64,000 nucleotides of DNA from Bacillota bacterium (GTDB lineage: Bacteria > Bacillota > DTU025), in the NCBI GenBank assembly GCA_050951805.1, contig JBMNJT010000002.1:576001-640000 (forward strand). The letters are read 5' to 3'. The notes under the pieces were generated by a model. That model was given only the letters and a program-made list of their open reading frames with translations. It did not search any database and was not told the origin of the DNA. A program made the translations under genes and the position numbers. Positions 430 to 59,120 of this stretch are shown one piece after another (position 1 is the stretch's first letter; every line of letters begins with the position of its first letter).

Positions 430-1110
430 ATAGCCTTCGATCAGCACTCCAGTTTCAAACTAGCAAGATCCAGCTTTGCGGTAACGCGAGTTTCAATATG
501 GTGCAGGCGATAGACAGGGGGCACCTGGAAAGGCGGACGCATTTTCCGACGTGATCTGCGCCACTACTTCAGACTGAAAAAGGTCGCCCGCTCAAGTAAG
601 GTGAGGCAGCAATCTTGTTCGAGCGGGCGCGTTCTACTGCGTGGACCTTCCAATCCAGAGCTCATCACATCAATGACGGCCACGTGTTAAGATGGCTGCG
701 GCTACCTATGCTGATGCAATCTGCGCCAGACTGTTTTACGGTCCACATGCAGAAAGACGAAGCTGCTAGGCTGGGCCACAACATGACCATCCTGGGGTAT
801 CTGCCTCAGACTTCGGGTGCGCCACCTCTTATTGACCACGAGACATCCATTGTTGCCTTGGAATCTGGTGTAGGCATGGCGATCAGTTCGGTTGAGCGCG
901 ACACCAATTAGGAAAATTCATTTGTGGCCCGACAATGGCATTGTTGCTTAGAAGAAGCTCTGTGAAGGCCTATGGCGCAGGGCATTTCATTGAAGGGCTT
1001 TTGCAGGGTGCGTGTTTTTCTATCCATGAAGGCAGAAGTGAATCGATGCAGAGGCAAGAAGCGTTGCGATTGTAGGGACGTGTGGTTACGCCGTCGAATA
1101 GTCAATGAGA

Positions 1111-1224
1111 TTGCTTGTCCGAGCCCACAGGCCTTGGGCTCAGGCCTGAAACGGAGCTGCGGCATGTGGGCCGATAGGGCGTATCTGGAAACGGGTGTGC
1201 TTCCCGATTTGGAAAGGAGAGCAA
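1111..1224 (+). ncRNA. Moco/Tuco riboswitch aptamer (MOCO RNA motif)
   Basis: P1 TTGCT..TCC / GGA..AGCAA; TCCGAG 5' core; P2 CCCACA/TGTGGG; TAGGGCGTATCTG-GAAA-CGGGTGTGCTT hairpin with GNRA loop; 3' core CTTCCCGATTTGGAAAGGAG; lies upstream of genes with molybdopterin-binding domains. Confidence 0.85.
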
Positions 1225-1237
1225 ACACCGGATTCTC

Positions 1238-1280
1238 GGGCCGGGGTCTGCCACCTTTCTGTGGCGCCCGGCCCATTCTG
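1238..1280 (+). terminator. Hairpin after the aptamer, probable riboswitch expression platform
   Basis: GGGCCGGG..GCCAC-CTTTCT-GTGGC..CCCGGCCC stem; U-tract is weak (ATTCTG). Confidence 0.5.
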
Positions 1281-1373
1281 TCATAAACTATCGACATTTG
1301 CCTGCTGCAGTTCCAGGAGACTTTTGGGGCATTGCAAGGCCGCTACAGAACGGCTGTAAGCGGAGGTGGGAAG

Positions 1374-2681
1374 GTGGAGGAATACAAAGGACGGCAAGGT
1401 GAGCGCAGAGAATATGGGAGCCGTAGGGAGAGACAGATCGCACTCATCGTATTCGCCGCCATCTGCATTATAGCTATGGCATTCATTTTCTTGTGGCCTC
1501 GGTTTGGTAGCCGAAGCTATGTCTTTGCCGTCGTCGGTGACAACCAGGGGCGGAACGAAGTCTGGAATGTCGTGATGGACGGGGTAAACTCCGACCGTCC
1601 TGATTTTGTGCTTCATTGTGGCGACATGGTTGCATCGGGCACAAGGGCTCAATACGGTGATTTCTTGCTCGGTGCGGAGAAGCTCAAAATGCCTTTTTAC
1701 GTTGTGCCTGGAAATCACGATGTTCGCGGAGAAGGACGAGAGTGCTTTGCTCAGCTCGTCAACGATCCGCCGTACTACTCGTTCGAACATGAAGGGTACA
1801 GGTTCATAGGCTTAGATGCCTCCGAGGGGAGCATCGACATGGAGCAGACGGAGTGGCTCAGGAACGAGCTGTCCAAGGATGGCCACAAATTCGTCTTCAT
1901 GCATGTGCCGCTGTATGACCCTCGTCCTGGAGGAGATCACTGCTTCCTCGATTCCGAGCAGGCGTTCGAGCTGGAGAAGCTGTTCAGAGAGAGCGGTGTT
2001 TTGGCCGTGTTCAGTGGGCATGTCCACATGTTCAGCCATGAAGAGCGCGATGGGGTCCAGTATGTGACAACAGGCGGCGCGGGAGCTCTCTTATACGCCC
2101 CGGAAGAAGAGGGCGGATTCTACCACTATGTCTTGGTCAAGGTTGACGGTGACCAGGTGGACATAGAAGCCAAGAAAGTGGAAGTGGAGTTTGAAGAGCC
2201 TTCTTTGACGTTGGTAGGCCCCGCTGGGGAGATCGAGTTGAGCCTCGGCGAGCTGGCGCTGATGGAAACCTTGGAGGTTGAGGCCGCTTTCGAGAACAAA
2301 TTCGAGAACCTTGGTGGGAAGGGCCTTTACGTGGGGGTTCCTGTAAGCCGTCTCGTCGAAATGGTCGGGGGGATGGTTCCAGGACAGACCCTCGTGGTGA
2401 CATGTGCTGATGGATATGCTCAGGATTATGCATACGAGAATCTCTACCCTTCTGAGCTGTGGGCAGAGATACAGGGCCCGATGATTTTGGCTTACGAAAA
2501 GGACGGCGCCACTTCGCCAAAGTGGCCGGAGTCTCCGAGGCTTGTTATGGCGTCTCCGGACGGGGTATATAGCAATGAGGACTGTGCAGACACATCCATG
2601 CCCGGGCAGGGGTGGAATGTGTATGAGTCTGCCGGCGCCAGATGGGCGCGGAGTGTAAGACGTGTTGAGGTCAAGGATTAG
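1374..2681 (+). CDS. Membrane-anchored calcineurin-like metallophosphoesterase fused to a C-terminal molybdopterin-binding (sulfite oxidase fold)-like domain
   Basis: GGAGG RBS before GTG 1374; N-terminal TM helix; motifs GDNQ, GDMV, GNHD, HVP, GHVH; C-terminal YVGVPVSRLV..CADGY..MILAYEKDG..PRLV..WARSVRRVEV. Confidence 0.85.
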   Translation: MEEYKGRQGERREYGSRRERQIALIVFAAICIIAMAFIFLWPRFGSRSYVFAVVGDNQGRNEVWNVVMDGVNSDRPDFVLHCGDMVASGTRAQYGDFLLGAEKLKMPFYVVPGNHDVRGEGRECFAQLVNDPPYYSFEHEGYRFIGLDASEGSIDMEQTEWLRNELSKDGHKFVFMHVPLYDPRPGGDHCFLDSEQAFELEKLFRESGVLAVFSGHVHMFSHEERDGVQYVTTGGAGALLYAPEEEGGFYHYVLVKVDGDQVDIEAKKVEVEFEEPSLTLVGPAGEIELSLGELALMETLEVEAAFENKFENLGGKGLYVGVPVSRLVEMVGGMVPGQTLVVTCADGYAQDYAYENLYPSELWAEIQGPMILAYEKDGATSPKWPESPRLVMASPDGVYSNEDCADTSMPGQGWNVYESAGARWARSVRRVEVKD

Positions 2682-2727
2682 CCTTCGTTTGCGTGTGTTG
2701 GTAACCGAAAATGGAGGAGGTTATTGT

Positions 2728-3723
2728 ATGAGGAAGAACCGTCTAGCGTTGGTCGTGTTTCTCGCTTTTGTGGTCGGGTTTATGGCGATGCCCGTGTTCT
2801 GGATGCCTGCACAGGCCCAGAACAACTGGAAGGTCGAAGTAGTATCGGGACAGAGAAGCGTCACTTTGACAGAGACCGATTTTGGCAGGATGAAACCTGT
2901 GTCGGCTAAAGCTGCTTTCCTTAGAACTACAGGGCGAATAGAGGGGCCTGCGCTTTACAAAGGCGTACCGATGGAAGAAATACTCAAGAAGGTTGGAGGC
3001 ATCGATCAAGGCCAAGCCATTCGCGTCACATCTCGTGACGGGTACGCGATGACTTACAGCTATGCTCAGGTTTGCGGAGGAATTCTCACATATGACAATC
3101 AGCAGAGGGCTTTGCGCATCGGCGGAGTTGCCATGTATTTGGCCTATGAGTCGGATCGGGACTCCGCTGACAAACTCCCGAGAATAGTCTTTATGGACAA
3201 GGAGAAAACCGCGATCACTGACGGACATTTCTGGGCGAAATCGGTGGCCAAGATAGAAGTCGTTCCCGGGGTGGACGATTGGATGATTAAGCTTAATGGA
3301 ATAGAGAAGACGTATTTTGACCGAGCCACTTTCGAGAGCACCGTCAATTGTCCTAGCACTCCTCATCCGGGCGTCAAGTGGGAAACAACTGAAAAAGACG
3401 GTAGCAATTCGACGTACGAGGGACTTCCGCTCTGGATCTGGGTGGCCATGATGGACGGAGGGGACTTGCCTGCCGGGCATTACCGCTTCAATGATTCTCT
3501 TGCACGCAAGGGTTACAGAGTTGTAGTGGTTTCAGCGGACGGTTTCTCTGCAGAACTCGATTCGGGCCTGATGGCGAGAAACGATCGAATAATACTCGCC
3601 TACAAGAAAAACGGTCAGTATCTGTCGAAGAACGATGGCCCGCTGCGGCTTGTCGGAGAAGATCTGCCTTCGAAGAAACACCAAGTGAAGCAGGTAGTTG
3701 AAATCAGGTTAGAGGGCATATAG
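2728..3723 (+). CDS. Secreted protein with two tandem molybdopterin-binding oxidoreductase-like domains
   Basis: GGAGGAGG RBS; signal peptide ending PAQA; repeat 1 YKGVPM..SRDGY..LAYE..WAKSVAKIEV; repeat 2 YEGLPL..SADGF..ILAYKKNG..GPLRLV..VKQVVEIRL. Confidence 0.85.
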   Translation: MRKNRLALVVFLAFVVGFMAMPVFWMPAQAQNNWKVEVVSGQRSVTLTETDFGRMKPVSAKAAFLRTTGRIEGPALYKGVPMEEILKKVGGIDQGQAIRVTSRDGYAMTYSYAQVCGGILTYDNQQRALRIGGVAMYLAYESDRDSADKLPRIVFMDKEKTAITDGHFWAKSVAKIEVVPGVDDWMIKLNGIEKTYFDRATFESTVNCPSTPHPGVKWETTEKDGSNSTYEGLPLWIWVAMMDGGDLPAGHYRFNDSLARKGYRVVVVSADGFSAELDSGLMARNDRIILAYKKNGQYLSKNDGPLRLVGEDLPSKKHQVKQVVEIRLEGI

Positions 3724-3796
3724 CGCAGAGTACTTTGTTGATCTGCAATATTGGTAACCGTTCGGCAGGGCAGTATTGTGTGGAGGGCTGGCATGG

Positions 3797-4852
3797 ATGA
3801 ATCCAGGACGAATGCGGAAAGCCTACTATTTCAGTACGCGAGATCTCGTCCTTATTGCGGCTATTAGCGCCGCTGGGGGCGTCCTCAGCACTTACGTTGG
3901 TTATCTGGGAAACCTCATGAACAAGGCTTTTGGCGTGCCCTTTGGTGCCGGTCAATGGATGGCAGGACTCCATGTATTCTGGTTCGTGTTTGCCAGGGCG
4001 ATTGTGGGGCGAACGGGAGCGGCATCCCTTACTGGGATCCTTAAAGGGATAGTCGAGATGTTTGCCGGCAGCACCCACGGATTTCCAATTGTAATTGTGT
4101 CAGCTGTTGAGGGAATTCTTGTCGATGTCGTGTTGTTGCCTTCGGGAAGTAACCCTTCCCTTGGGGCAATGTGCCTCGCTGGCGGGATTTCGTCTGCTTC
4201 CAACGTGCTCATATTCCAGGCCCTGTACTTTTCGGGGGTATCAATGGGCTATATGGGGCTGATAACCGCTTTTGCCTTCGCATCGGGGGCAGCGTTCGGG
4301 GGATATTTCACTGCAGGCGTGCTTGATGCTGTATCATCCGCCCACATACTTAAGGTCGATGAAGAGCGAAGGAGCGTCCATCGACCGCCAGTTGTCCGCA
4401 TGGGCGTTGCCATTGCGCTAGTGCTGGTTTTGGCCGGCGGAGCAGTGTACTACTATGCATGCGTCTTCGAACCTTTCTGGAATGGGCCTACATGCCGTGT
4501 CGAGGGCACGGTGGCTCAAGCTTACAATTACAGACCTATTGATTTTGAAGATGACAATGTCACGGTCGTCGCTGAGCTCAAGGGTGCAGTCACCCACGTA
4601 CCTCCCACGGATTACACAGGAGTTCCCTTGGCTGCGATTCTTGAACGCGCAGGCGTGGGCGAGTCGGCCACAGAGATTCAGGTTGTTGCTTCTGATGGGT
4701 ATTACGCCGTGTTCGACCTCGATGATGTTATGCGCCGTCAAGATGTTATTTTGGCGCAGGATGACGAAACGCTCAGGTTGATTGCCACAGGGTACGAGGG
4801 GGCCTATTGGGTCAGGATGGTATCCAGGATCGTGGTGTGCGAGGATGATTGA
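3797..4852 (+). CDS. ECF transporter S component (YkoE-like) fused to an extracytoplasmic molybdopterin-binding-like domain
   Basis: STRDLVLIAAISA start, about 6 TM helices, RTGAASLTGILKGIVE; extra TM, then YTGVPLAAILERAG..ASDGY..LRLI..GAYWVRMVSRI. Confidence 0.85.
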   Translation: MNPGRMRKAYYFSTRDLVLIAAISAAGGVLSTYVGYLGNLMNKAFGVPFGAGQWMAGLHVFWFVFARAIVGRTGAASLTGILKGIVEMFAGSTHGFPIVIVSAVEGILVDVVLLPSGSNPSLGAMCLAGGISSASNVLIFQALYFSGVSMGYMGLITAFAFASGAAFGGYFTAGVLDAVSSAHILKVDEERRSVHRPPVVRMGVAIALVLVLAGGAVYYYACVFEPFWNGPTCRVEGTVAQAYNYRPIDFEDDNVTVVAELKGAVTHVPPTDYTGVPLAAILERAGVGESATEIQVVASDGYYAVFDLDDVMRRQDVILAQDDETLRLIATGYEGAYWVRMVSRIVVCEDD

Positions 4853-6320
4853 CATTTCCGGCCTTAGAGTGCGGTATTATGGCTCCTCCGAACTCGCTCT
4901 AAGAGATATTGACCTCATAGTTGAACCTGGCGAGAGCGTCATTGTGACTGGCCCTAGCGGCTGTGGCAAGTCTACATTGGCGCTCTGCTTGGCAGGATTT
5001 GTTCCTCATGCCATTGGAGCTGAAGTAGCAGGCAGCATAAGGGTTTGCGGCATTAATCAGCGAGAAGCCAGCGTTTACCGGATTGCACAGCATGTGGGCC
5101 TTGTGCAGCAAGACCCTGAAGGGCAGTTCTGCACCATGTGCGTGGAGGATGAGGTTGCATTTGGGCCTGAGAATCTCCGTTGCTCGCCTTATGAGGTCGA
5201 AAGCCGCCTTGACAGGGCGTTGGCAACGACAGGAGTATCTCATCTTCGGGGGCGCAAGTTGACTGAGCTTTCTGGAGGAGAGAAGCAGAAAGTTGCCCTC
5301 GCTGCAGTGCTGGCCATGGAACCTGATCTCGTGATTTTGGATGAACCTACAGCCTATCTTGATCCGCGTGCCACCCGTGAGCTTATCGAGCTTGTGTCGA
5401 GGATGCGGGATGCGGATAGTAGGTTGACACTCTTGATACTGGAACATAAACCATGGCGTTTTGGCCATGCACTGGAACGGGTGATCCATCTTGACAGGGG
5501 TTCTCTCATGTACGATGGGCCTATCGGCGGTGCCGCTTTCGAAGAGGAGATCCTGGATCAGCTTCCACACAGCCACAGATCGCTTCACGGCTTTGGCGAG
5601 CCTTTGCTCAGAGTGCAGAACCTCTGGCAAGCCTATGGCGAGAGAACTGTGCTTCGCGATGTAGATTTGGAGGTTTGCAGAGGTGAGATTGTGGGACTGA
5701 TGGGCGACAATGGAAGCGGCAAGACGACTTTGCTCCATACAATTATGGGATTCTTACGGCCCTCGTCAGGCAGAGTACTGCTTGAAGGGGATGATATCAC
5801 CAACAAGCCGGTATCAGCCCGGGCCAGAAAAATCGGAATGATATTTCAGAATCCAAACCACCAGCTGTTTACGGACCGTGTGTGGAGGGAGGTGGTCATA
5901 GGTCCCTTATGTCAAGGTGACACTGAAGAAGAGTGCCGTCCTCGCGCAGATGCGCTCCTTGACTCATTCGGACTCTCTAGTTACCGCGATTCCCATCCGC
6001 TACTACTGAGCTACGGCCAGAAGCGCCGACTCAACCTCGCGTCAACCATGGCATCCAACCCAAGTCTCCTGTTGCTCGATGAACCCTTTGCCGGGCAGGA
6101 TGTATCGCGAGCCCGCGATCTCATGTGCATTCTGGATGAGCTTGCTTCAGAGGGTGTTGGAGTTTTGATCATAGGCCATGATCCCGATATCATGACCAGG
6201 TGTTGCGACAGGATCCTTTTCATGCGTGATGGAGAGATTCAGATAGACGCTCCTTCTTACGAGGCTGTAGCTGAGCTTGAAAGGAGGGGCGAACATGATT
6301 ACCTTCCCGGCAGATTCTGA
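4845..6320 (+). CDS. ECF transporter duplicated ATPase (A-A' fusion)
   Basis: Two Walker A motifs (GPSGCGKS, GDNGSGKT), QDPEGQF/QNPNHQLF Q-helices, LSGGEKQ/LSYGQKR, LDEP; start overlaps the upstream stop. Confidence 0.95.
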   Translation: MIDISGLRVRYYGSSELALRDIDLIVEPGESVIVTGPSGCGKSTLALCLAGFVPHAIGAEVAGSIRVCGINQREASVYRIAQHVGLVQQDPEGQFCTMCVEDEVAFGPENLRCSPYEVESRLDRALATTGVSHLRGRKLTELSGGEKQKVALAAVLAMEPDLVILDEPTAYLDPRATRELIELVSRMRDADSRLTLLILEHKPWRFGHALERVIHLDRGSLMYDGPIGGAAFEEEILDQLPHSHRSLHGFGEPLLRVQNLWQAYGERTVLRDVDLEVCRGEIVGLMGDNGSGKTTLLHTIMGFLRPSSGRVLLEGDDITNKPVSARARKIGMIFQNPNHQLFTDRVWREVVIGPLCQGDTEEECRPRADALLDSFGLSSYRDSHPLLLSYGQKRRLNLASTMASNPSLLLLDEPFAGQDVSRARDLMCILDELASEGVGVLIIGHDPDIMTRCCDRILFMRDGEIQIDAPSYEAVAELERRGEHDYLPGRF

Positions 6321-7026
6321 CGGCTCAACTGCTGTCAGCAAACTGAACCCCATCACTAAACTGATCGTATTAGTATCGGCTTGTACAGTAGCTTTGCGGC
6401 TTAAGGAGCCTTTGCATGCCCTGATTTGTTTTGGCCTTATTCTCATTGGGCATCTTCTCACTAAGGTGAGACCGGCCATCTTGTGGCAGCGGACGAGAGG
6501 CATATTCATGTTTGGCATCATCCTTTTCGCTAGCCAGATCGCTTTGGTATGTGATGTGCCTTGGCAAACTCGGATTGCCAACGGAGCTTTGATGTCTTTG
6601 CGCTTTCTCAATGTGGTCCTGGCAAGCCATCTCTTTGTAAGTGTCACTAGCTCGGAGGATTTTGCCTACGCTCTCATGCAGGCCGGTCTCCCATACAGAT
6701 ACGGATTCGCCCTCCTTGCCACAATGCGTTTCGTTCCATACTTCAAAACGCAGGCAAATACGGTACTTCAGGCGCAGATGGCGCGGGGGATGGAAGTGGA
6801 TCGCCCCACGCCGAAAGGGATATTCCTCATGGCCAAGCACACCTTCGTTCCAGTCATTGTGACTGCCCTGAGCAAGGTTGATTCCCTCGCCATATCTATG
6901 GAAGGCAGATGTTTTGGCCTTTACTCTGACCGAACTTACCGTCGGAGAATCCCTTTTCACTGGTTGGATGGGGTTGTTATATGTGCAAGCATTGCAGGCA
7001 TAGTTGCGTCTTTCTATCTTATCTGA
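6295..7026 (+). CDS. ecfT: ECF transporter transmembrane T component
   Basis: LNPITKL, MRFVP, AQMARG and MEGRCF Arg motifs; AGGAGG RBS. Confidence 0.92.
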   Translation: MITFPADSDGSTAVSKLNPITKLIVLVSACTVALRLKEPLHALICFGLILIGHLLTKVRPAILWQRTRGIFMFGIILFASQIALVCDVPWQTRIANGALMSLRFLNVVLASHLFVSVTSSEDFAYALMQAGLPYRYGFALLATMRFVPYFKTQANTVLQAQMARGMEVDRPTPKGIFLMAKHTFVPVIVTALSKVDSLAISMEGRCFGLYSDRTYRRRIPFHWLDGVVICASIAGIVASFYLI

Positions 7027-7131: not shown

Positions 7132-7818
7132 ATGAAATATGAATTGATTCTGTTTGATGCTGATGGAACGCTATTCGATTACGACAAGGCGGAACGGTAT
7201 GCACTTGAGCAAACTTGTCGCCAACATGGACTAGGATACGATCAACCTTTGCTGGAACGATACAGGGCTATCAATTCGTCGCTCTGGAGGCAGCTTGAGG
7301 AGGGCATGATCACTTCCTCAAAGATCAGGGTGGAGAGGTTCAGGAGGCTTCTTTCTGAAATCGGATCAGATGCAGAGTGTGACTGGGAGCAATTCGCCCA
7401 GCATTACCTCTTGCATCTCGCCGGGGGTGCCTGGCTCATAGACGGGGCAGAGGAGATCTGCCGCTACCTTGCTCCCTATTACAAGCTGGCTATATTGACC
7501 AATGGAATCAAGGAAGTCCAGATATCGAGGTTTCAGGCTTCTTCGCTCACACCATACATCGACAAGCTCATCATCTCGGAGGAGGTGGGGTACAGCAAAC
7601 CCCGTCCCGAGATCTTTGAATATGCAATGAAGACCCTGGGACAGGAGTGTCGAAGCACAACGATGATAGTCGGCGATTCGCTCACTTCGGACATGCGTGG
7701 GGGCAAGGACTTTGGCATCGCAACATGCTGGTACAATCCACATGGCATTGAAAATGGCACGGGCTTAGAGGTTGACTACGAGATACGCCGGCTGGATCAA
7801 TTGAAGGACATCTTGTGA
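7132..7818 (+). CDS. HAD hydrolase, YjjG/YfnB-type pyrimidine 5'-nucleotidase
   Basis: FDADGTLFD, LTNG, KP, GDSLTSD, WYNP motifs. Confidence 0.88.
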   Translation: MKYELILFDADGTLFDYDKAERYALEQTCRQHGLGYDQPLLERYRAINSSLWRQLEEGMITSSKIRVERFRRLLSEIGSDAECDWEQFAQHYLLHLAGGAWLIDGAEEICRYLAPYYKLAILTNGIKEVQISRFQASSLTPYIDKLIISEEVGYSKPRPEIFEYAMKTLGQECRSTTMIVGDSLTSDMRGGKDFGIATCWYNPHGIENGTGLEVDYEIRRLDQLKDIL

Positions 7819-7888: not shown

Positions 7889-8881
7889 CTAGCTTCGCAG
7901 GGCCTGAATGGCATTTTGAGCCCAACTGGGATTGGCCAGAAGGGCCCTTCCCACGCCGACAAGGTCTGCTTTGCCTTGACGGACTAACGAGTCGGCGGCT
8001 TCTGGAGTTGTTATGCCACCCGTTACCATCACCGGAACGTCCACTGCGCCTTTTATTGCCTCAGAGAGCGGCGCAAAGTAGCCCTCGCCTGTGTATCCCG
8101 GCAAGCTGGCGCCACCGAGGCCACCTGAGACGTCGATAGCGTCGACTCCCGCTGCTACCAGTTTTTGTGCGGCCCAACATGTGTCATCGATTGTGAGCCC
8201 GCCAGGAACGCCATCGTCAGCCCCCAGCCTGTAGAATATGGCTGCGTCAGGTCCGACTGCCGAACAGACCGCCGTCACGACTTCGAGAGGAAAACGGAGA
8301 CGGCCCTCTCGACTCCCCCCATACTCATCCGATCGAATGTTGGTGATGGGAGAAAGAAACTGGTTTAGTAGGTAGCCATGTGCCCCATGGAGTTCGACCA
8401 TGTCGAATCCGGCGGCAACTGCGCGTTTGGCGCCTTGCACAAATGCTTTCACAAGATGCGGTATGAAGCTGCGCTTGATTTCACATGGAACCTCGTGTTC
8501 GGGCGAAAGCGGGACGACCGAAGGACCCAAAGGCCTTTGCCCTATTGTGCTGCTGCGGGTGGCGGCGCCGGCATGGGTGATCTGAATGCCAATTGCGGCG
8601 CCGCAGGCGTGAACGCGCCGAGTTAGCTCGCTGAGGGGGCCTACATGGTCATCACAGTCTATCCCGAGCTGCCTTTCTCGGTATTTGCCCGACTTGAGCA
8701 CGTACGTATGCTCTACGATGATCAGTCCTACCCCGCGATCCGCGCGCTCTTCATAGTATCTGAACGTAGCTTCAGTTGCCATGCCTTCAAGAGTTGCAGT
8801 GTTGCTTGCCATTGGCGGCATGACTATGCGGTTTTTCAAGCTCATATTCTTTACACAAAGCGGCGACAGAAGATCTGACAA
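7889..8881 (-). CDS. NADH:flavin oxidoreductase (Old Yellow Enzyme family)
   Basis: KNRIVMPPM, ELHGAHGYLLNQFLSP, NIRSDEYGGS, VGRALLANP; GGAGG RBS before TTG 8881. Confidence 0.93.
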   Translation of the reverse strand: MSDLLSPLCVKNMSLKNRIVMPPMASNTATLEGMATEATFRYYEERADRGVGLIIVEHTYVLKSGKYRERQLGIDCDDHVGPLSELTRRVHACGAAIGIQITHAGAATRSSTIGQRPLGPSVVPLSPEHEVPCEIKRSFIPHLVKAFVQGAKRAVAAGFDMVELHGAHGYLLNQFLSPITNIRSDEYGGSREGRLRFPLEVVTAVCSAVGPDAAIFYRLGADDGVPGGLTIDDTCWAAQKLVAAGVDAIDVSGGLGGASLPGYTGEGYFAPLSEAIKGAVDVPVMVTGGITTPEAADSLVRQGKADLVGVGRALLANPSWAQNAIQALRS

Positions 8882-9251
8882 TGTTAGTGGAGCCTCCCGT
8901 ATTGATATTGTTGATGCTGCCTTCACGCGACGAATTCGATTGTCTTAACGTACACGAGCTGGGCAAGCCTTCGCCCCGAAATCCGAAGCTAAGCCGAGGC
9001 TTGCTTCGGATTTGCGTCATTGTTAGCCCGGTCATCCGTGCGTCAGTCGAAAAGAACCTCACCAGGAATTACTCTGCTGCCAATTAGCCATCGGATTCGA
9101 TCCGAAATCTAACGGTAGGAGAGTAGAACATGAGTCGGCCCAACCAAGCTTTGAATGTTGTCCACAAGCCAGCATCCAGCCGCAGAGGCTCTTAAGGCGT
9201 ACAGACGGGCTCAGCTGAGCCGAGGTCATAGCATAGTCTAAGGACGCGTTG

Positions 9252-20945: not shown

Positions 20946-21021
20946 GGGCCCGTAGCTCAGCTGGGAGAGCGCTAGAATCGCACTCTAGAGGTCGCGCGTT
21001 CGATCCGCGTCGGGTCCACCA
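20946..21021 (+). tRNA. tRNA-Ala(CGC)
   Basis: Cloverleaf, anticodon loop AT-CGC-AC, G3:U70 pair, encoded CCA. Confidence 0.95.
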
Positions 21022-58851: not shown

Positions 58852-59120
58852 GGCCGTGCTAGACGGGGAGGTAGCGGTGCCCTGTACCCGAAAACCGCTA
58901 TAGCGGGGTTGACTTCCCACCCTAGGCCTGCCTTCTTTGGGGCCTGCCCGACGCAAGTGGTGTTGAGGGCTGGGTCCTGCGCAACGAGGCTCTGTGAACC
59001 CCGTCAGGACCGGGAGGTAGCAGCGGTAAGCAGATACCCTCGTGTGCCGCGGGAGCGCCTGGTCGGAGCTGGCTACGTCGGTACCGCCTGGGGAAGCTTG
59101 TCGAAGGTGGGTGCACGGCC
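58852..59120 (+). ncRNA. ffs: Large bacterial SRP RNA with Alu domain
   Basis: GCCGTGCTAGACGGGGAGGTAGCGGTGCCCTGTA 5' Alu; GTCAGGACCGGGAGGTAGCAGC helix 8; closing GCACGGCC; located between tadA and dnaX. Confidence 0.95.

What the first reader, a model, noticed from the sequence alone, without database searches (positions are those of the whole stretch)
1111..7026. Moco/Tuco-riboswitch operon resembling an importer or salvage system for intact molybdenum/tungsten cofactor
Seen: a MOCO RNA motif leads five same-strand, tightly coupled genes: phosphoesterase + MPT-like domain, secreted twin MPT-like protein, ECF S + MPT-like domain, ECF A-A', and ECF T. Four exported copies of the sulfite-oxidase/MsrP-type molybdopterin-binding fold are present. 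Established: Moco RNAs usually precede molybdate/tungstate ABC transporters, moa/moe genes or Mo/W enzymes; ECF systems import vitamins and cofactors, and their riboswitch typically reports the substrate. Inference: the operon captures molybdopterin/tungstopterin (or a dinucleotide form) from the environment. I know of no characterised Moco-specific ECF transporter.
Basis: partly seen in the sequence, partly recalled or inferred. Interest (0 to 1): 0.9.

Follow-up and report, generated by a model that had tools for sequence, protein, structure and literature searches.

The report
Candidate tungsten/molybdenum cofactor uptake operon
A riboswitch that senses the tungsten/molybdenum pterin cofactor controls a vitamin-type importer carrying four outward-facing pterin-binding domains and a surface phosphoesterase, in a bacterium that has a tungsten enzyme but no detected genes to make its cofactor, so it probably takes the cofactor up ready-made, a route not described for prokaryotes.

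Summary
A P3-less ("Tuco-type") Moco RNA (RF01055, 55.4 bits, window 1104-1235) leads five coupled genes: an anchored metallophosphoesterase with a Cys-less SUOX-like domain, a Sec-exported twin SUOX-like protein, a YkoE-type ECF S component with a seventh helix and an outward SUOX-like domain, a fused ECF A-A' and an ECF T.

The exported domains fold most like PruR, a known periplasmic pterin-binding protein.

In the host genome (97% complete) I found no MoaA C-domain, MoaC, MoaE, MoeA, DMSO-reductase-family enzyme or Tup/Mod-type binding protein. It keeps one tungsten-type AOR and a MobB-like plus kinase-like gene pair. Its second Moco RNA controls a cofactor-independent aldehyde dehydrogenase.

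In a 401-genome phylum sample, 31 genomes have AOR but lack MoaC and MoeA. 23 of these carry Moco RNAs, and in 22 the RNA-led gene string holds SUOX-like exported proteins or YkoE-type S components.

The module also occurs in cofactor prototrophs: 18 of 24 carriers have MoaC.

Best reading, about 0.6: a salvage importer for the W/Mo pyranopterin cofactor or a near derivative. The cargo is unproven. I found no publication describing it. Unchecked notes of this scan describe the same kind of system in at least 21 other genomes.

The parts
1104..1235 (+). Moco RNA motif (RF01055), the P3-less variant that Regulski et al. 2008 link to the tungsten cofactor
   Evidence: Scores 55.4 bits against a gathering score of 36. 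The alignment shows the P3 positions of the model deleted. The subtype meaning comes from passages of PMC2408646.
1238..1274 (+). GC-rich hairpin directly after the aptamer, a possible expression platform. Its loop holds CCUUUC, complementary to the aptamer's GGAAAGG. No U-tract follows.
   Evidence: RNA fold of 1200-1300: -36.1 kcal/mol, z -2.53. The terminator scan did not flag it. Its role is inferred, not shown.
1374..2681 (+). P1: N-terminal membrane anchor, calcineurin-type metallophosphoesterase, and a C-terminal Cys-less SUOX/PruR-like domain
   Evidence: PF00149 at 65.5 bits on residues 51-219. The GD, GNHD and GHVH motifs are readable. The C-domain matches the P2 N-domain at E 1e-14. 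GGAGG lies 7 nt before GTG 1374. The closest solved relatives are GpdQ and Rv0805 phosphodiesterases, weakly at E 6e-5 to 4e-4.
2728..3723 (+). P2: Sec-type signal peptide (ending AQA, no twin arginine) followed by two PruR-like, SUOX-fold domains
   Evidence: AF2 model with pLDDT 90.3. Foldseek matches PruR chains at E 1.5e-5 and TM 0.66-0.70. PF00174 at 32 bits. The family has 715 cluster representatives at E<=1e-3.
3812..4852 (+). ECF S component of the YkoE type, fused through a seventh TM helix to an outward SUOX/PruR-like domain
   Evidence: PF09819 at 59.8 bits and PF00174 at 33.6 bits. The profile hits YkoE 5edl at E 4.9e-15. The model has 6+1 helices and a beta domain at residues 228-344, with TM 0.82 to 5edl. 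436 homologues at E<=1e-3.
4845..6320 (+). Fused ECF A-A' ATPase
   Evidence: ABC_tran at 207 bits in two stretches. TIGR04520 at 325.5 bits against a cut-off of 315.
6295..7026 (+). ECF T component
   Evidence: CbiQ PF02361 at 58.8 bits against a cut-off of 25.
7132..7818 (+). YjjG-type HAD nucleotidase, 105 nt after T. Membership of the operon is doubtful.
   Evidence: TIGR02254 at 208.5 bits against a cut-off of 159.9. Among the 20 related loci it stands after T only in the same-genus genome. No terminator-like site was found between T and it.

Best explanation
The operon is a dedicated (group I) ECF importer for the tungsten/molybdenum pyranopterin cofactor or a very close derivative, taken from the surroundings.

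Proposed steps:
1. When the intracellular cofactor is scarce, the P3-less Moco RNA lets the operon be expressed.
2. The anchored phosphoesterase P1 trims released cofactor outside the cell. It would cleave the dinucleotide pyrophosphate of MGD/MCD forms, the terminal phosphate, or both.
3. The four Cys-less PruR-like domains, on P1, on secreted P2 and on the S component, bind the pterin part and pass it to the YkoE-type S component.
4. The A-A'/T module drives import.
5. Inside the cell, a MobB-like P-loop protein and an APH-type kinase would re-phosphorylate the cofactor and hand it to the apo-enzyme. These are encoded elsewhere in this genome but inside the operon in other lineages.

Shown here: the RNA, the gene set, the folds, the outward topology, the missing biosynthesis genes and the conservation across genomes.

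Inferred: the OFF logic of the switch, the ligand, the phosphoesterase substrate, the hand-over between domains and every intracellular step.
For: (1) Regulation.
- A Tuco-type Moco RNA leads the operon.
- The same arrangement, no more than 5 kb upstream on the same strand, holds in 15 of 24 carrier genomes.
- 10 of 10 displayed alignments are P3-less.

(2) Need.
- The genome (97.08% complete) gives 0 hits for MoaC, the MoaA C-domain, MoaE, MoeA_N, PF00384 and the TupA-type PF12849.
- Its only PF00994 protein is CinA. Its PF13531 hits are PhnS-like, PotD and MalE.
- It nevertheless has a full-length AOR.
- Tungstate alone would therefore be useless to it.

(3) Generality.
- In the 401-genome sample, 39 genomes are AOR+ MoaC- and 31 of them also lack MoeA.
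- Five checked genomes from five families, one of them closed, also lack MoaE and the MoaA C-domain.
- 23 of the 31 have Moco RNAs.
- The first gene after such an RNA is a PF00174-like exported protein or a YkoE-type S component in 18 of the 23. It is weakly so in 1 more.
- Such genes lie further down the string in 3 more.

(4) Fold.
- P2's best solved matches are PruR pterin-binding proteins.
- The pterin-stacking Tyr aligns: DGY against NDY in 7kom. Asp is conserved in 30 of 30 sequences and Tyr in 28 of 30.
- Signals are Sec or lipoprotein type, so the proteins are exported without cofactor (read directly).

(5) Module conservation.
- A phosphoesterase, multi-domain SUOX-like protein(s) and S-A-A'-T recur together. 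12 of 20 loci have P1-P2-S, and 3 more have a giant repeat protein with a 26-27%-identical phosphoesterase.
- In split-form operons the phosphoesterase is replaced by an unrelated PF01663 nucleotide pyrophosphatase (2 of 2 tested).
- MobB+FeS (3 of 3 tested) and APH-like kinases (2 of 2 tested) follow T.
- This genome keeps a MobB-like/APH-like pair.

(6) Coherent regulon.
- The genome's only other Moco RNA precedes an NAD-type aldehyde dehydrogenase (PF00171, E 1e-144).
- That arrangement is conserved in the same genus.
- It fits a cofactor-sparing substitute for the tungsten AOR.

(7) Association with AOR.
- S-fusion carriers: 23 of 244 AOR+ genomes against 1 of 157 AOR- genomes.
- P2-family hits: 16 of 39 AOR+ MoaC-, 29 of 205 AOR+ MoaC+, 3 of 73 AOR- MoaC+ and 1 of 84 AOR- MoaC-.
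Against: - No binding or transport data exist; the cargo is inferred.
- 18 of 24 carriers have MoaC and 21 of 24 have MoeA. Most owners can make the cofactor, and MoaC is as frequent among carriers (75%) as in the sample (69%).
- 8 of the 31 AOR+ MoaC- MoeA- genomes show no Moco RNA, and neither the S-fusion nor the A1 query found the system in them. One, G260, has a Peripla_BP_2 ABC system behind its Moco RNA instead.
- PruR's pocket is described as too short for Moco and binds small pterins (PMC11194511 passages). The closest solved relative is therefore not a Moco binder.
- The free cofactor is notoriously labile (recalled).
- The expression platform is not a canonical terminator.
- Genomes in the sample are related, so the counts overstate independence.
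- Absence calls rest on Pfam models in draft genomes.
Confidence: 0.6

Rival explanations
1. The system imports an incomplete pterin species, such as cPMP, metal-free or dephospho-molybdopterin, or a breakdown product. Unrecognised enzymes then finish the cofactor; candidates are the MobB-FeS protein and the APH-like kinase. The metal would be acquired separately.
For: - APH-type kinases and MobB-like proteins sit in or near the operons.
- Surface phosphoesterases of two unrelated families suggest the imported form is dephosphorylated.
- PruR-type pockets fit small pterins.
Against: - The host shows no MoaE, MoeA or Tup/Mod/Wtp-type binding protein. Sulfuration and metal insertion would therefore need wholly unknown enzymes and an unknown metal route.
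- This overlaps with the main reading and differs only in the cargo.
Confidence: 0.17
2. It is an ECF-type importer for tungstate or molybdate, with the SUOX-like domains acting as oxyanion or metal binders.
For: - Moco RNAs commonly control modABC/tupABC (passages of PMC2408646).
- ECF systems for metals exist (Cbi/Nik; recalled).
- Most carriers can make MPT.
- The C-domain of P2 has a conserved His with a nearby Cys in 25 of 30 sequences.
Against: - In the host, in G360 and in G351 there is no MoaC or MoeA, yet the operon, the RNA and AOR are kept. In G351 there is also no MoaE or MoaA C-domain.
- The same holds for split-form operons in many other MoaC-/MoeA- genomes.
- The S component is of the YkoE vitamin type, not CbiM/NikM.
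- The fold and the conserved Tyr match a pterin pocket.
- Phosphoesterases have no role in oxyanion uptake.
Confidence: 0.07
3. The exported PruR-like domains are sensors or redox proteins for non-Moco pterins, as in PruR-DcpA signalling. The ECF module would import an unrelated vitamin such as thiamine/HMP, like YkoE.
For: - The closest solved relatives are PruR (pterin signalling) and YkoE (thiamine).
- JGI names the S-fusion homologues 'thiamin/HMP transport permease'.
Against: - No TPP riboswitch and no DcpA-type gene is present; the leader is RF01055.
- The binding domain is covalently fused to the S component in every one of the best 120 homologues listed, all 283-439 aa and E<=6e-91. 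71 of them carry precomputed PF00174.
- The association is with AOR and with MobB.
- PruR's PW motif is not conserved (alignment, read directly).
Confidence: 0.06
4. The missing moa/moe genes are artefacts of draft or binned genomes, and the operon is only an accessory of ordinary cofactor metabolism with no role in auxotrophy.
For: - Five AOR+ MoaC- genomes that do have MoeA are 79-92% complete. Their MoaC is probably just unassembled.
- The host assembly has 8 contigs and 2.7% contamination.
Against: - Four separate families of genes are missing together in a 97%-complete genome.
- They are also missing in the same-genus genome, in a closed 1-contig genome (G101, 99%) and in a 2-contig genome (G112, 98%).
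- The same searches hit 11 of 14 control genomes.
Confidence: 0.05

Closest known systems
YkoEDC, the dedicated (group I) ECF importer for thiamine/HMP of Bacillus subtilis (S component YkoE, PDB 5EDL; PMC5037267, search listing and abstract only)
   Same: - The S component is homologous: profile E 4.9e-15, TM 0.82 over 187 columns.
- It has its own A, A' and T genes in one operon.
- It is controlled by a riboswitch for the end-product cofactor. That YkoEDC is under a TPP riboswitch is recalled.
   Different: - The leader is a Moco/Tuco RNA, not a TPP RNA.
- The S component carries a seventh helix and an outward pterin-binding-type domain.
- Two further exported proteins carry three more such domains and a phosphoesterase.
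- A and A' are fused.
- ECF vitamin importers are usually described as working without extracytoplasmic binding proteins (recalled).
PruR, the periplasmic pterin-binding protein of Agrobacterium and other Proteobacteria (PDB 7KOU, 7KOS, 7RKB, 7KOM, 7KP2; PMC11194511, passages read)
   Same: - It is a small, secreted, Cys-less degenerate SUOX fold.
- It is the best structural match of P2, at E 1.5e-5 and TM 0.66-0.70.
- The Tyr that stacks on the pterin aligns.
   Different: - PruR stands alone beside a DcpA-type c-di-GMP enzyme and acts in signalling with folate-branch pterins.
- Here the domains are tandem, fused to a phosphoesterase and to a transporter subunit, and controlled by a Moco RNA.
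- PruR's PW motif is not kept.
- Sequence similarity is marginal, at E 0.0017.
SUOX-family molybdoenzymes (sulfite dehydrogenase SorA/SorT, SoxC, YedY/MsrP)
   Same: The Moco-binding fold is shared. PF00174 reaches its cut-off on two domains. Foldseek matches 2ca4, 2xts and 1xdy.
   Different: - Three of the four domains have no Cys in the loop that carries the Mo ligand (read directly).
- Pfam reports no dimerisation or haem domain.
- Export uses Sec or lipoprotein signals instead of Tat.
- The host cannot make the cofactor such an enzyme would need.
Known Moco-riboswitch regulons: moaABCDE, modABC, tupABC and Mo/W enzymes (Regulski et al. 2008, PMC2408646, passages; Sun et al. 2013, PMC3766115, passages)
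   Same: The RNA family is the same. The P3-less subtype is the one associated with tungsten-cofactor genes.
   Different: - The controlled genes are an ECF importer with pterin-binding domains.
- In Sun et al. the 'coenzyme uptake' categories list B12, thiamin, riboflavin, queuosine and folate transporters but none for Moco.
- The supplementary gene lists of both papers could not be seen.
Extracellular relays for cobamide scavenging in Bacteroides (PMC13616437, search listing and abstract only) and dietary Moco uptake by C. elegans (recalled)
   Same: The logic is shared: an auxotroph for an expensive cofactor uses several surface binding proteins, under control of that cofactor's riboswitch, to capture it from neighbours.
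   Different: - The proteins, the transporter class (TonB/BtuCD against ECF), the cofactor and the envelope type all differ.
- No prokaryotic counterpart for Moco/Tuco turned up in my searches.

Membership tests
Moco RNA motif (Rfam RF01055) | Covariance-model score at or above the curated gathering score, over the full model | tested here: met
   55.4 bits against 36, model positions 1-135 of 135.
Moco RNA motif, 'Tuco' subtype | The P3 stem is absent | tested here: met
   The P3 positions of the model are deleted in the alignment. The same is seen in 10 of 10 displayed operon-linked homologues.
Moco RNA motif (riboswitch function) | Ligand-dependent control through an expression platform | tested here: inconclusive
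   A stable hairpin lies at 1238-1274, but it has no U-tract and the terminator scan did not flag it. Ligand binding cannot be tested here.
ECF transporter, group I (dedicated module) | S, T and two A domains are encoded together | tested here: met
   PF09819, PF02361 and a double ABC_tran with TIGR04520 lie in one gene string. The order S-A-A'-T is kept in 18 of 20 related loci; the other two are cut by contig ends.
YkoE-type S component (PF09819) | Sequence and fold homology to YkoE | tested here: met
   PF09819 at 59.8 bits against a cut-off of 25.2. 5edl at E 4.9e-15 and TM 0.82, rmsd 2.4 A.
YkoEDC thiamine/HMP importer | TPP-riboswitch control and a thiamine-related context | tested here: not met
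   No TPP RNA is present in the window or in 14 related loci; the leader is RF01055.
SUOX-family molybdoenzyme (PF00174) | Moco-binding fold | tested here: met
   PF00174 at 32 and 33.6 bits against a cut-off of 24. Foldseek matches SorA, SoxC and YedY.
SUOX-family molybdoenzyme (PF00174) | Conserved Cys that ligates Mo | tested here: not met
   P1c, P2n and P3c have no Cys in the stretch before the Y-x-G-V-P motif. In P2c a Cys lies 7 residues before a conserved His and recurs in 25 of 30 sequences at two alternative positions. Whether it is equivalent to the ligand Cys is not established.
SUOX-family molybdoenzyme (exported members) | Tat signal for export of the cofactor-loaded enzyme (the rule itself is recalled) | tested here: not met
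   P2 begins MRKNRLALVV...AQA with no twin arginine. Homologues show lipobox signals.
PruR pterin-binding proteins | Secreted, Cys-less, truncated SUOX fold of about 150 aa | tested here: met
   Best Foldseek hits are 7kou, 7kos, 7rkb, 7kom and 7kp2, with TM 0.66-0.70 normalised to the target.
PruR pterin-binding proteins | Pterin-stacking Tyr and Trp, the H-bonding Asn, and the PW motif in place of Cys | tested here: inconclusive
   The Tyr aligns, and Asp stands at the Asn position, conserved in 28 of 30 and 30 of 30 sequences. A Trp is conserved later, in 25 of 30, but its equivalence was not checked in 3D. The PW motif is absent.
PruR pterin-binding proteins | Operon partner is a DcpA-type GGDEF/EAL or kinase sensor | tested here: not met
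   The neighbours are a phosphoesterase and ECF genes.
Calcineurin-like metallophosphoesterase (PF00149) | Domain match and metal-binding motifs | tested here: met
   65.4 bits against a cut-off of 21.5. GD..., GDMV, GNHD, MH and GHVH are readable. The substrate cannot be tested here.

The most novel reading that the evidence does not exclude
Prokaryotes possess a dedicated salvage pathway for the ready-made tungsten/molybdenum pyranopterin cofactor.

The proposed pathway:
- Surface phosphoesterases trim released MGD/MCD/MPT forms.
- Arrays of Cys-less PruR-like domains capture the metal-bearing pterin.
- A YkoE-type ECF transporter imports it.
- An APH-type kinase and a MobB-FeS protein re-activate it and deliver it to apo-enzymes.

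This would underlie a widespread and so far unrecognised cofactor auxotrophy. 31 of 401 sampled genomes of this phylum have AOR but lack MoaC and MoeA. It would make tungsten-cofactor cross-feeding a structuring interaction in anaerobic digesters.
Probability: 0.45. Interest if true: 0.92.

Novelty: new variant of a known kind. Interest (0 to 1): 0.85.

Why it matters
The Mo/W pyranopterin cofactor is treated as one that every user must make for itself, because the free molecule is very labile. No bacterial or archaeal transporter for it turned up in the papers I could search.

A riboswitch-controlled importer would have several consequences:
- It would overturn that assumption for anaerobes.
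- It would explain how genomes with tungsten enzymes but no moa/moe genes can function.
- It would add a cofactor to the list of shared 'public goods' in methanogenic communities. The stretch is found in DNA runs labelled anaerobic digester, bioreactor or sludge metagenome from 12 studies.
- It would show ECF transporters using tethered extracytoplasmic binding domains.
- It would give a second function, after PruR signalling, to the Cys-less SUOX fold.
- It would offer a practical handle, in the form of binding proteins, for stabilising and purifying the cofactor.

The hypothesis is directly testable with ordinary expression and binding assays.

Tried and rejected
An alignment query would have reached further. 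I used the genome search instead.
- I tested whether MoaC loss is enriched among S-fusion carriers. It is not (18 of 24 against 278 of 401), so I dropped 'marker of auxotrophy' as a general claim.
- The HAD nucleotidase after T is not conserved beyond the genus and was dropped as a core part.
- The terminator scan found nothing behind the aptamer, so I make no claim about transcription termination.
- The greedy ORF map lost the PF00174-like gene of G210 (L125) to a longer antisense ORF. That locus was counted instead.
- RNA-library contigs from 4 runs of 3 studies lie on the operon. In X15 one 5.7-kb contig spans 800-6306. Contigs cannot show transcription, strand or level, and DNA can be present in such libraries, so I use this only as a weak hint and not as evidence.
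- Parts of the stretch without contig cover in X16-X18 mean nothing.
- I did not run complex prediction or the protein-atlas search.
- I did not check MobA, MoaD or MoeB in the host.
- I did not inspect the models in 3D, so pocket geometry and the position of the Cys/His of P2c are unknown.
The supplementary gene tables of Regulski 2008 and Sun 2013 may list this gene context.
- The claim that the system is not in print rests (full-text searches of the held library only) and on passages read.

Full report
**Observation**

The whole-window Rfam scan finds the Moco RNA motif RF01055 at 1104-1235 (+). It scores 55.4 bits against a gathering score of 36. The genome (2.75 Mb, 8 contigs, 97.08% complete) holds only two such RNAs.

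The alignment shows that the model positions forming stem P3 are deleted. Regulski et al. 2008 associate the P3-less variant with tungsten-cofactor genes (PMC2408646, passages).

A stable hairpin at 1238-1274 follows the aptamer. It has no U-tract and was not flagged as a terminator. The expression platform is therefore unresolved.

Five same-strand genes follow. Starts were refined from homologue alignments and from the Shine-Dalgarno sequence before GTG 1374.
- P1, 1374-2681: a basic N-terminus and one hydrophobic helix, then a calcineurin-type metallophosphoesterase with its motifs readable, then a 165-aa C-terminal domain. Pfam does not name that domain, but it matches the first domain of P2 at E 1e-14.
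- P2, 2728-3723: a Sec-type signal peptide and two domains.
- S-fusion, 3812-4852: PF09819 and PF00174.
- A-A', 4845-6320: a fused double ATPase.
- T, 6295-7026.

**What the parts are**

An AlphaFold2 model of P2 built on 30 homologues has pLDDT 90.3.
- Its best matches among solved structures are the PruR pterin-binding proteins (7kou, 7kos, 7rkb with neopterin, 7kom, 7kp2), at E 1.5e-5 to 2.5e-4 and TM 0.66-0.70 relative to the target.
- Sulfite dehydrogenases, SoxC and YedY come next.

PruR is described as a secreted, Cys-less, truncated SUOX fold. It holds a pterin between a Tyr and a Trp (PMC11194511, passages).
- The P2 family profile aligns its invariant D-G-Y with the N-D-Y of 7kom.
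- The Asp is present in 30 of 30 sequences and the Tyr in 28 of 30.
- Three of the four domains have no Cys where SUOX enzymes carry the Mo ligand.
- The second domain of P2 has a conserved His with a nearby Cys in 25 of 30 sequences. I could not place these residues in 3D.

The S-fusion model (pLDDT 88.6) has six helices that superpose on the thiamine S component YkoE (5edl; TM 0.82; profile E 4.9e-15). A seventh helix and a beta domain follow. The odd helix count and the basic linker before helix 7 put the domain outside the cell. This rests on the usual in-in topology of S components, which is recalled.

**Distribution of the parts**

The S-fusion is a large family.
- 436 proteins reach E<=1e-3 among 8000 candidates scored.
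- The best 120 are all at E<=6e-91.
- Sources name them ECF S component, thiamin/HMP permease or even 'sulfite oxidase'.
- They come from Bacillota and from archaeal MAGs.

P2 has 715 cluster representatives at E<=1e-3 and 153 at E<=1e-30. Many are giant proteins with up to 9 repeats.

In 20 related loci:
- P1-P2-S (then A-A'-T where the contig allows) is kept in 12. Two of them have the order P2-P1.
- Three more have a 1119-1179-aa repeat protein, a 26-27%-identical phosphoesterase and S-A-A'-T.
- The other five have subsets of these genes.

**The host cannot make the cofactor**

- Searches of the host genome gave 0 matches for MoaC, the MoaA C-domain, MoaE, MoeA_N and the PF00384 molybdopterin oxidoreductases. 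Each of these models hit 11 of 14 control genomes.
- The only PF00994 protein is CinA.
- There is no PF12849 protein, and the four PF13531 hits are PhnS-like (two), PotD and MalE.
- There is one full-length aldehyde:ferredoxin oxidoreductase next to an iron alcohol dehydrogenase.
- The other Moco RNA, which does have a P3, precedes an NAD-type aldehyde dehydrogenase. That arrangement is kept in the same-genus genome.
- This is the pattern known for B12 riboswitches and B12-independent isozymes (a category listed in PMC3766115). When the cofactor is short, both the importer and a cofactor-free substitute are turned on. The OFF logic is inferred.

**Sample of 401 genomes of the phylum**

Twenty-four genomes carry a strong S-fusion match, with best E<=1e-40.
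- 23 of the 24 have AOR, 23 have Moco RNAs, 18 have MoaC and 21 have MoeA.
- MoaC is found in 278 of 401 genomes and AOR in 244 of 401.

| Class | Genomes | With S-fusion |
|---|---|---|
| AOR+ MoaC+ | 205 | 17 |
| AOR+ MoaC- | 39 | 6 |
| AOR- MoaC+ | 73 | 1 |
| AOR- MoaC- | 84 | 0 |

The module therefore goes with AOR, not specifically with loss of biosynthesis.

Of the 39 AOR+ MoaC- genomes, 31 also lack MoeA. The 8 that have MoeA are 79-93% complete and probably just lack an assembled moaC. Five of the 31, from five families and including a closed genome, also lack MoaE and the MoaA C-domain.

23 of the 31 have Moco RNAs. Behind those RNAs:
- The first gene is a PF00174-like exported protein or lipoprotein, or a YkoE-type S component, in 18.
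- It is weakly so in 1 (G112, below Pfam's cut-off).
- Such genes lie further down the string in 3 (G351, G226, G359).
- One (G260) has a Peripla_BP_2 ABC system instead.

Eight of the 31 show neither an RNA nor the module with my queries.

The P2-family profile hits 16 of 39 AOR+ MoaC-, 29 of 205 AOR+ MoaC+, 3 of 73 AOR- MoaC+ and 1 of 84 AOR- MoaC- genomes. It misses several divergent lipoproteins that Pfam does find.

These genomes are related, so these are counts and not statistics.

**Split-form operons add meaning**

In the other auxotroph lineages the same functions come as separate genes. The order is:
1. Moco RNA
2. PF00174-like lipoprotein
3. S component of 185-217 aa
4. often a 495-666-aa PF01663 nucleotide pyrophosphatase/phosphodiesterase
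5. a small PF00174-like protein
6. A, A' and T
7. a MobB plus Fe-S-motif protein
8. an APH/RIO-type kinase

Pfam was run on 10 of these proteins. It confirmed PF01663 in 2 of 2, MobB in 3 of 3, APH in 2 of 2 and PF00174 in 1 of 1. One kinase-position protein gave only a weak ABC1 match, and one neighbour was DUF2254.

Two unrelated phosphoesterase families occupy the same place in the system. A phosphoester cleavage outside the cell is therefore probably part of the mechanism.

The MobB-like protein ties the operon to molybdopterin handling inside the cell.

The host keeps a MobB-like gene (91 bits) followed by an APH-like gene at G000:C3:122189-123892. The APH-like gene scores 22.5 bits, just under the cut-off. 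The pair is 35% and 24-29% identical to the operon-borne ones.

Outside phosphatase, importer and inside kinase is the usual shape of vitamin salvage (recalled).

**Mechanism and rivals**

- **Best reading (0.6):** import of the W/Mo pyranopterin cofactor or a near derivative by the steps above.
- **Incomplete pterin as cargo (0.17):** this needs unknown sulfuration and metal-insertion enzymes and an unknown metal route in the host.
- **Tungstate or molybdate uptake (0.07):** this is pointless in genomes without MPT synthesis and MoeA. It does not fit a YkoE-type S component, a pterin-type pocket or phosphoesterases.
- **PruR-like signalling with an unrelated vitamin importer (0.06):** this does not fit the covalent fusion, the Moco leader or the MobB link.
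- **Assembly artefact (0.05):** this does not fit the joint absence of four gene families in several high-quality genomes.

**Against my reading**

- Nothing is known about binding.
- Most carriers are prototrophs.
- A quarter of the candidate auxotrophs show no module.
- PruR's pocket is described as too short for Moco.
- The free cofactor is labile (recalled).

**Comparison with what is known, and novelty**

The system works like a riboswitch-controlled group I ECF vitamin importer, and its S component is a YkoE homologue. It fails the YkoEDC test of TPP control. Its exported domains are PruR-like in fold but fail PruR's operon context and PW motif. They fail the SUOX-enzyme tests of the Cys ligand and the Tat signal.

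Full-text searches found no paper linking Moco riboswitches or molybdopterin with ECF transport or salvage in prokaryotes. The regulon survey of Sun et al. lists no Moco transporter. Supplements could not be seen.

Notes of this scan (AI, unchecked) describe the same kind of operon in at least 21 other genomes with the same reading. They are not independent evidence. I reached the points above from my own calls, except the Sec-versus-Tat argument, which came from a note on this window and which I then checked on the sequences.

I class it as a new variant of a known kind (an ECF importer) with a new cargo class and new tethered binding domains. I score interest at 0.85, because it would make prokaryotic uptake of this cofactor directly testable.

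The stretch occurs in DNA runs labelled anaerobic digester, bioreactor or sludge metagenome from 12 studies, and contigs of RNA libraries lie on it. That is context only.

Noticed in passing
G000:C2:544683-544826 (31 kb before the window; L004 1684-1827) and L004:1946-3487: The genome's only other Moco RNA has a P3 stem and scores 62.3 bits. It precedes a 513-aa NAD-type aldehyde dehydrogenase (PF00171, E 1e-144). This looks like a cofactor-sparing substitute for the tungsten AOR. The arrangement is conserved in the same-genus genome (84% identity), and ALDH fragments follow the RNA in G334.
   Followed up: partly
G000:C3:122189-123892 (L139 5189-6892): A MobB-like gene (PF03205, 91 bits) is followed by an APH-like kinase gene. 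The genome otherwise lacks MoaA, MoaC, MoaE and MoeA. The same pair follows the ECF T gene in split-form operons of other lineages. Here it lies between chemotaxis receptor genes and a CheX-like gene.
   Followed up: partly
Window 3340-3380 (P2 residues about 205-215); alignment A1: The second domain of P2 has a His conserved in 27 of 30 sequences, with a Cys within 14 alignment columns before it in 25 of 30. The Cys sits at two alternative positions (C-x6-H or C-H). These could be contacts to the metal or the dithiolene. They were not placed in 3D.
   Followed up: partly
L074/L133 (G226) and L086/L134 (G359): In two AOR+ MoaC- MoeA- genomes the first gene after the Moco RNA is a small FMN_bind-domain protein (PF04205). 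A 515-aa protein follows, then PF00174-like or S-component genes. This hints at a redox step at the cell surface.
   Followed up: no
L111 (G351:C10:28000-45600): A 17-kb Moco-RNA-led string holds several parts in order. First come surface proteins with Fn3_assoc, CHB_HEX_C_1, Big_2 and Cu_amine_oxidN1 domains joined to PF00174-like domains. A MotA/ExbB-like protein follows, then an 1179-aa repeat protein and a purple-acid-phosphatase-type phosphoesterase. The string ends with the S-fusion, A-A', T and an APH-like gene.
   Followed up: partly
L138 (G260:C115) 599-4050: Behind the Moco RNA of one AOR+ MoaC- MoeA- genome (81% complete) lie a Peripla_BP_2 binding protein, a 353-aa protein and an ABC ATPase. 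This may be a different transporter class for the same job.
   Followed up: no
G351:C11:110186-110580; G152:C4:344634-344986; G397:C57:56-347; G397:C21:9624-10024; G397:C21:17436-17805: Pairs of Moco RNAs stand in tandem, 100-150 nt apart on one strand. G397 holds 14 Moco RNAs in all.
   Followed up: no
Window 7132-7818 (+) and 7889-8926 (-): A YjjG-type HAD pyrimidine nucleotidase lies 105 nt after the T gene and is conserved there only within the genus. Beyond it, a 345-aa ORF on the other strand was not examined.
   Followed up: partly
(phylum sample): 31 of 401 sampled genomes, from 17 families, have AOR but show neither MoaC nor MoeA. Dependence on an outside supply of the tungsten/molybdenum cofactor may be common in this phylum.
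   Followed up: partly
Window 62917-64000, 58854-59118, and the tRNAs at 20946, 30918, 31060, 49249, 49346, 58612 and 58741: The window also holds the 5' part of a 16S rRNA gene cut by the window end, a large-type SRP RNA and seven tRNA genes. These are ordinary.
   Followed up: no
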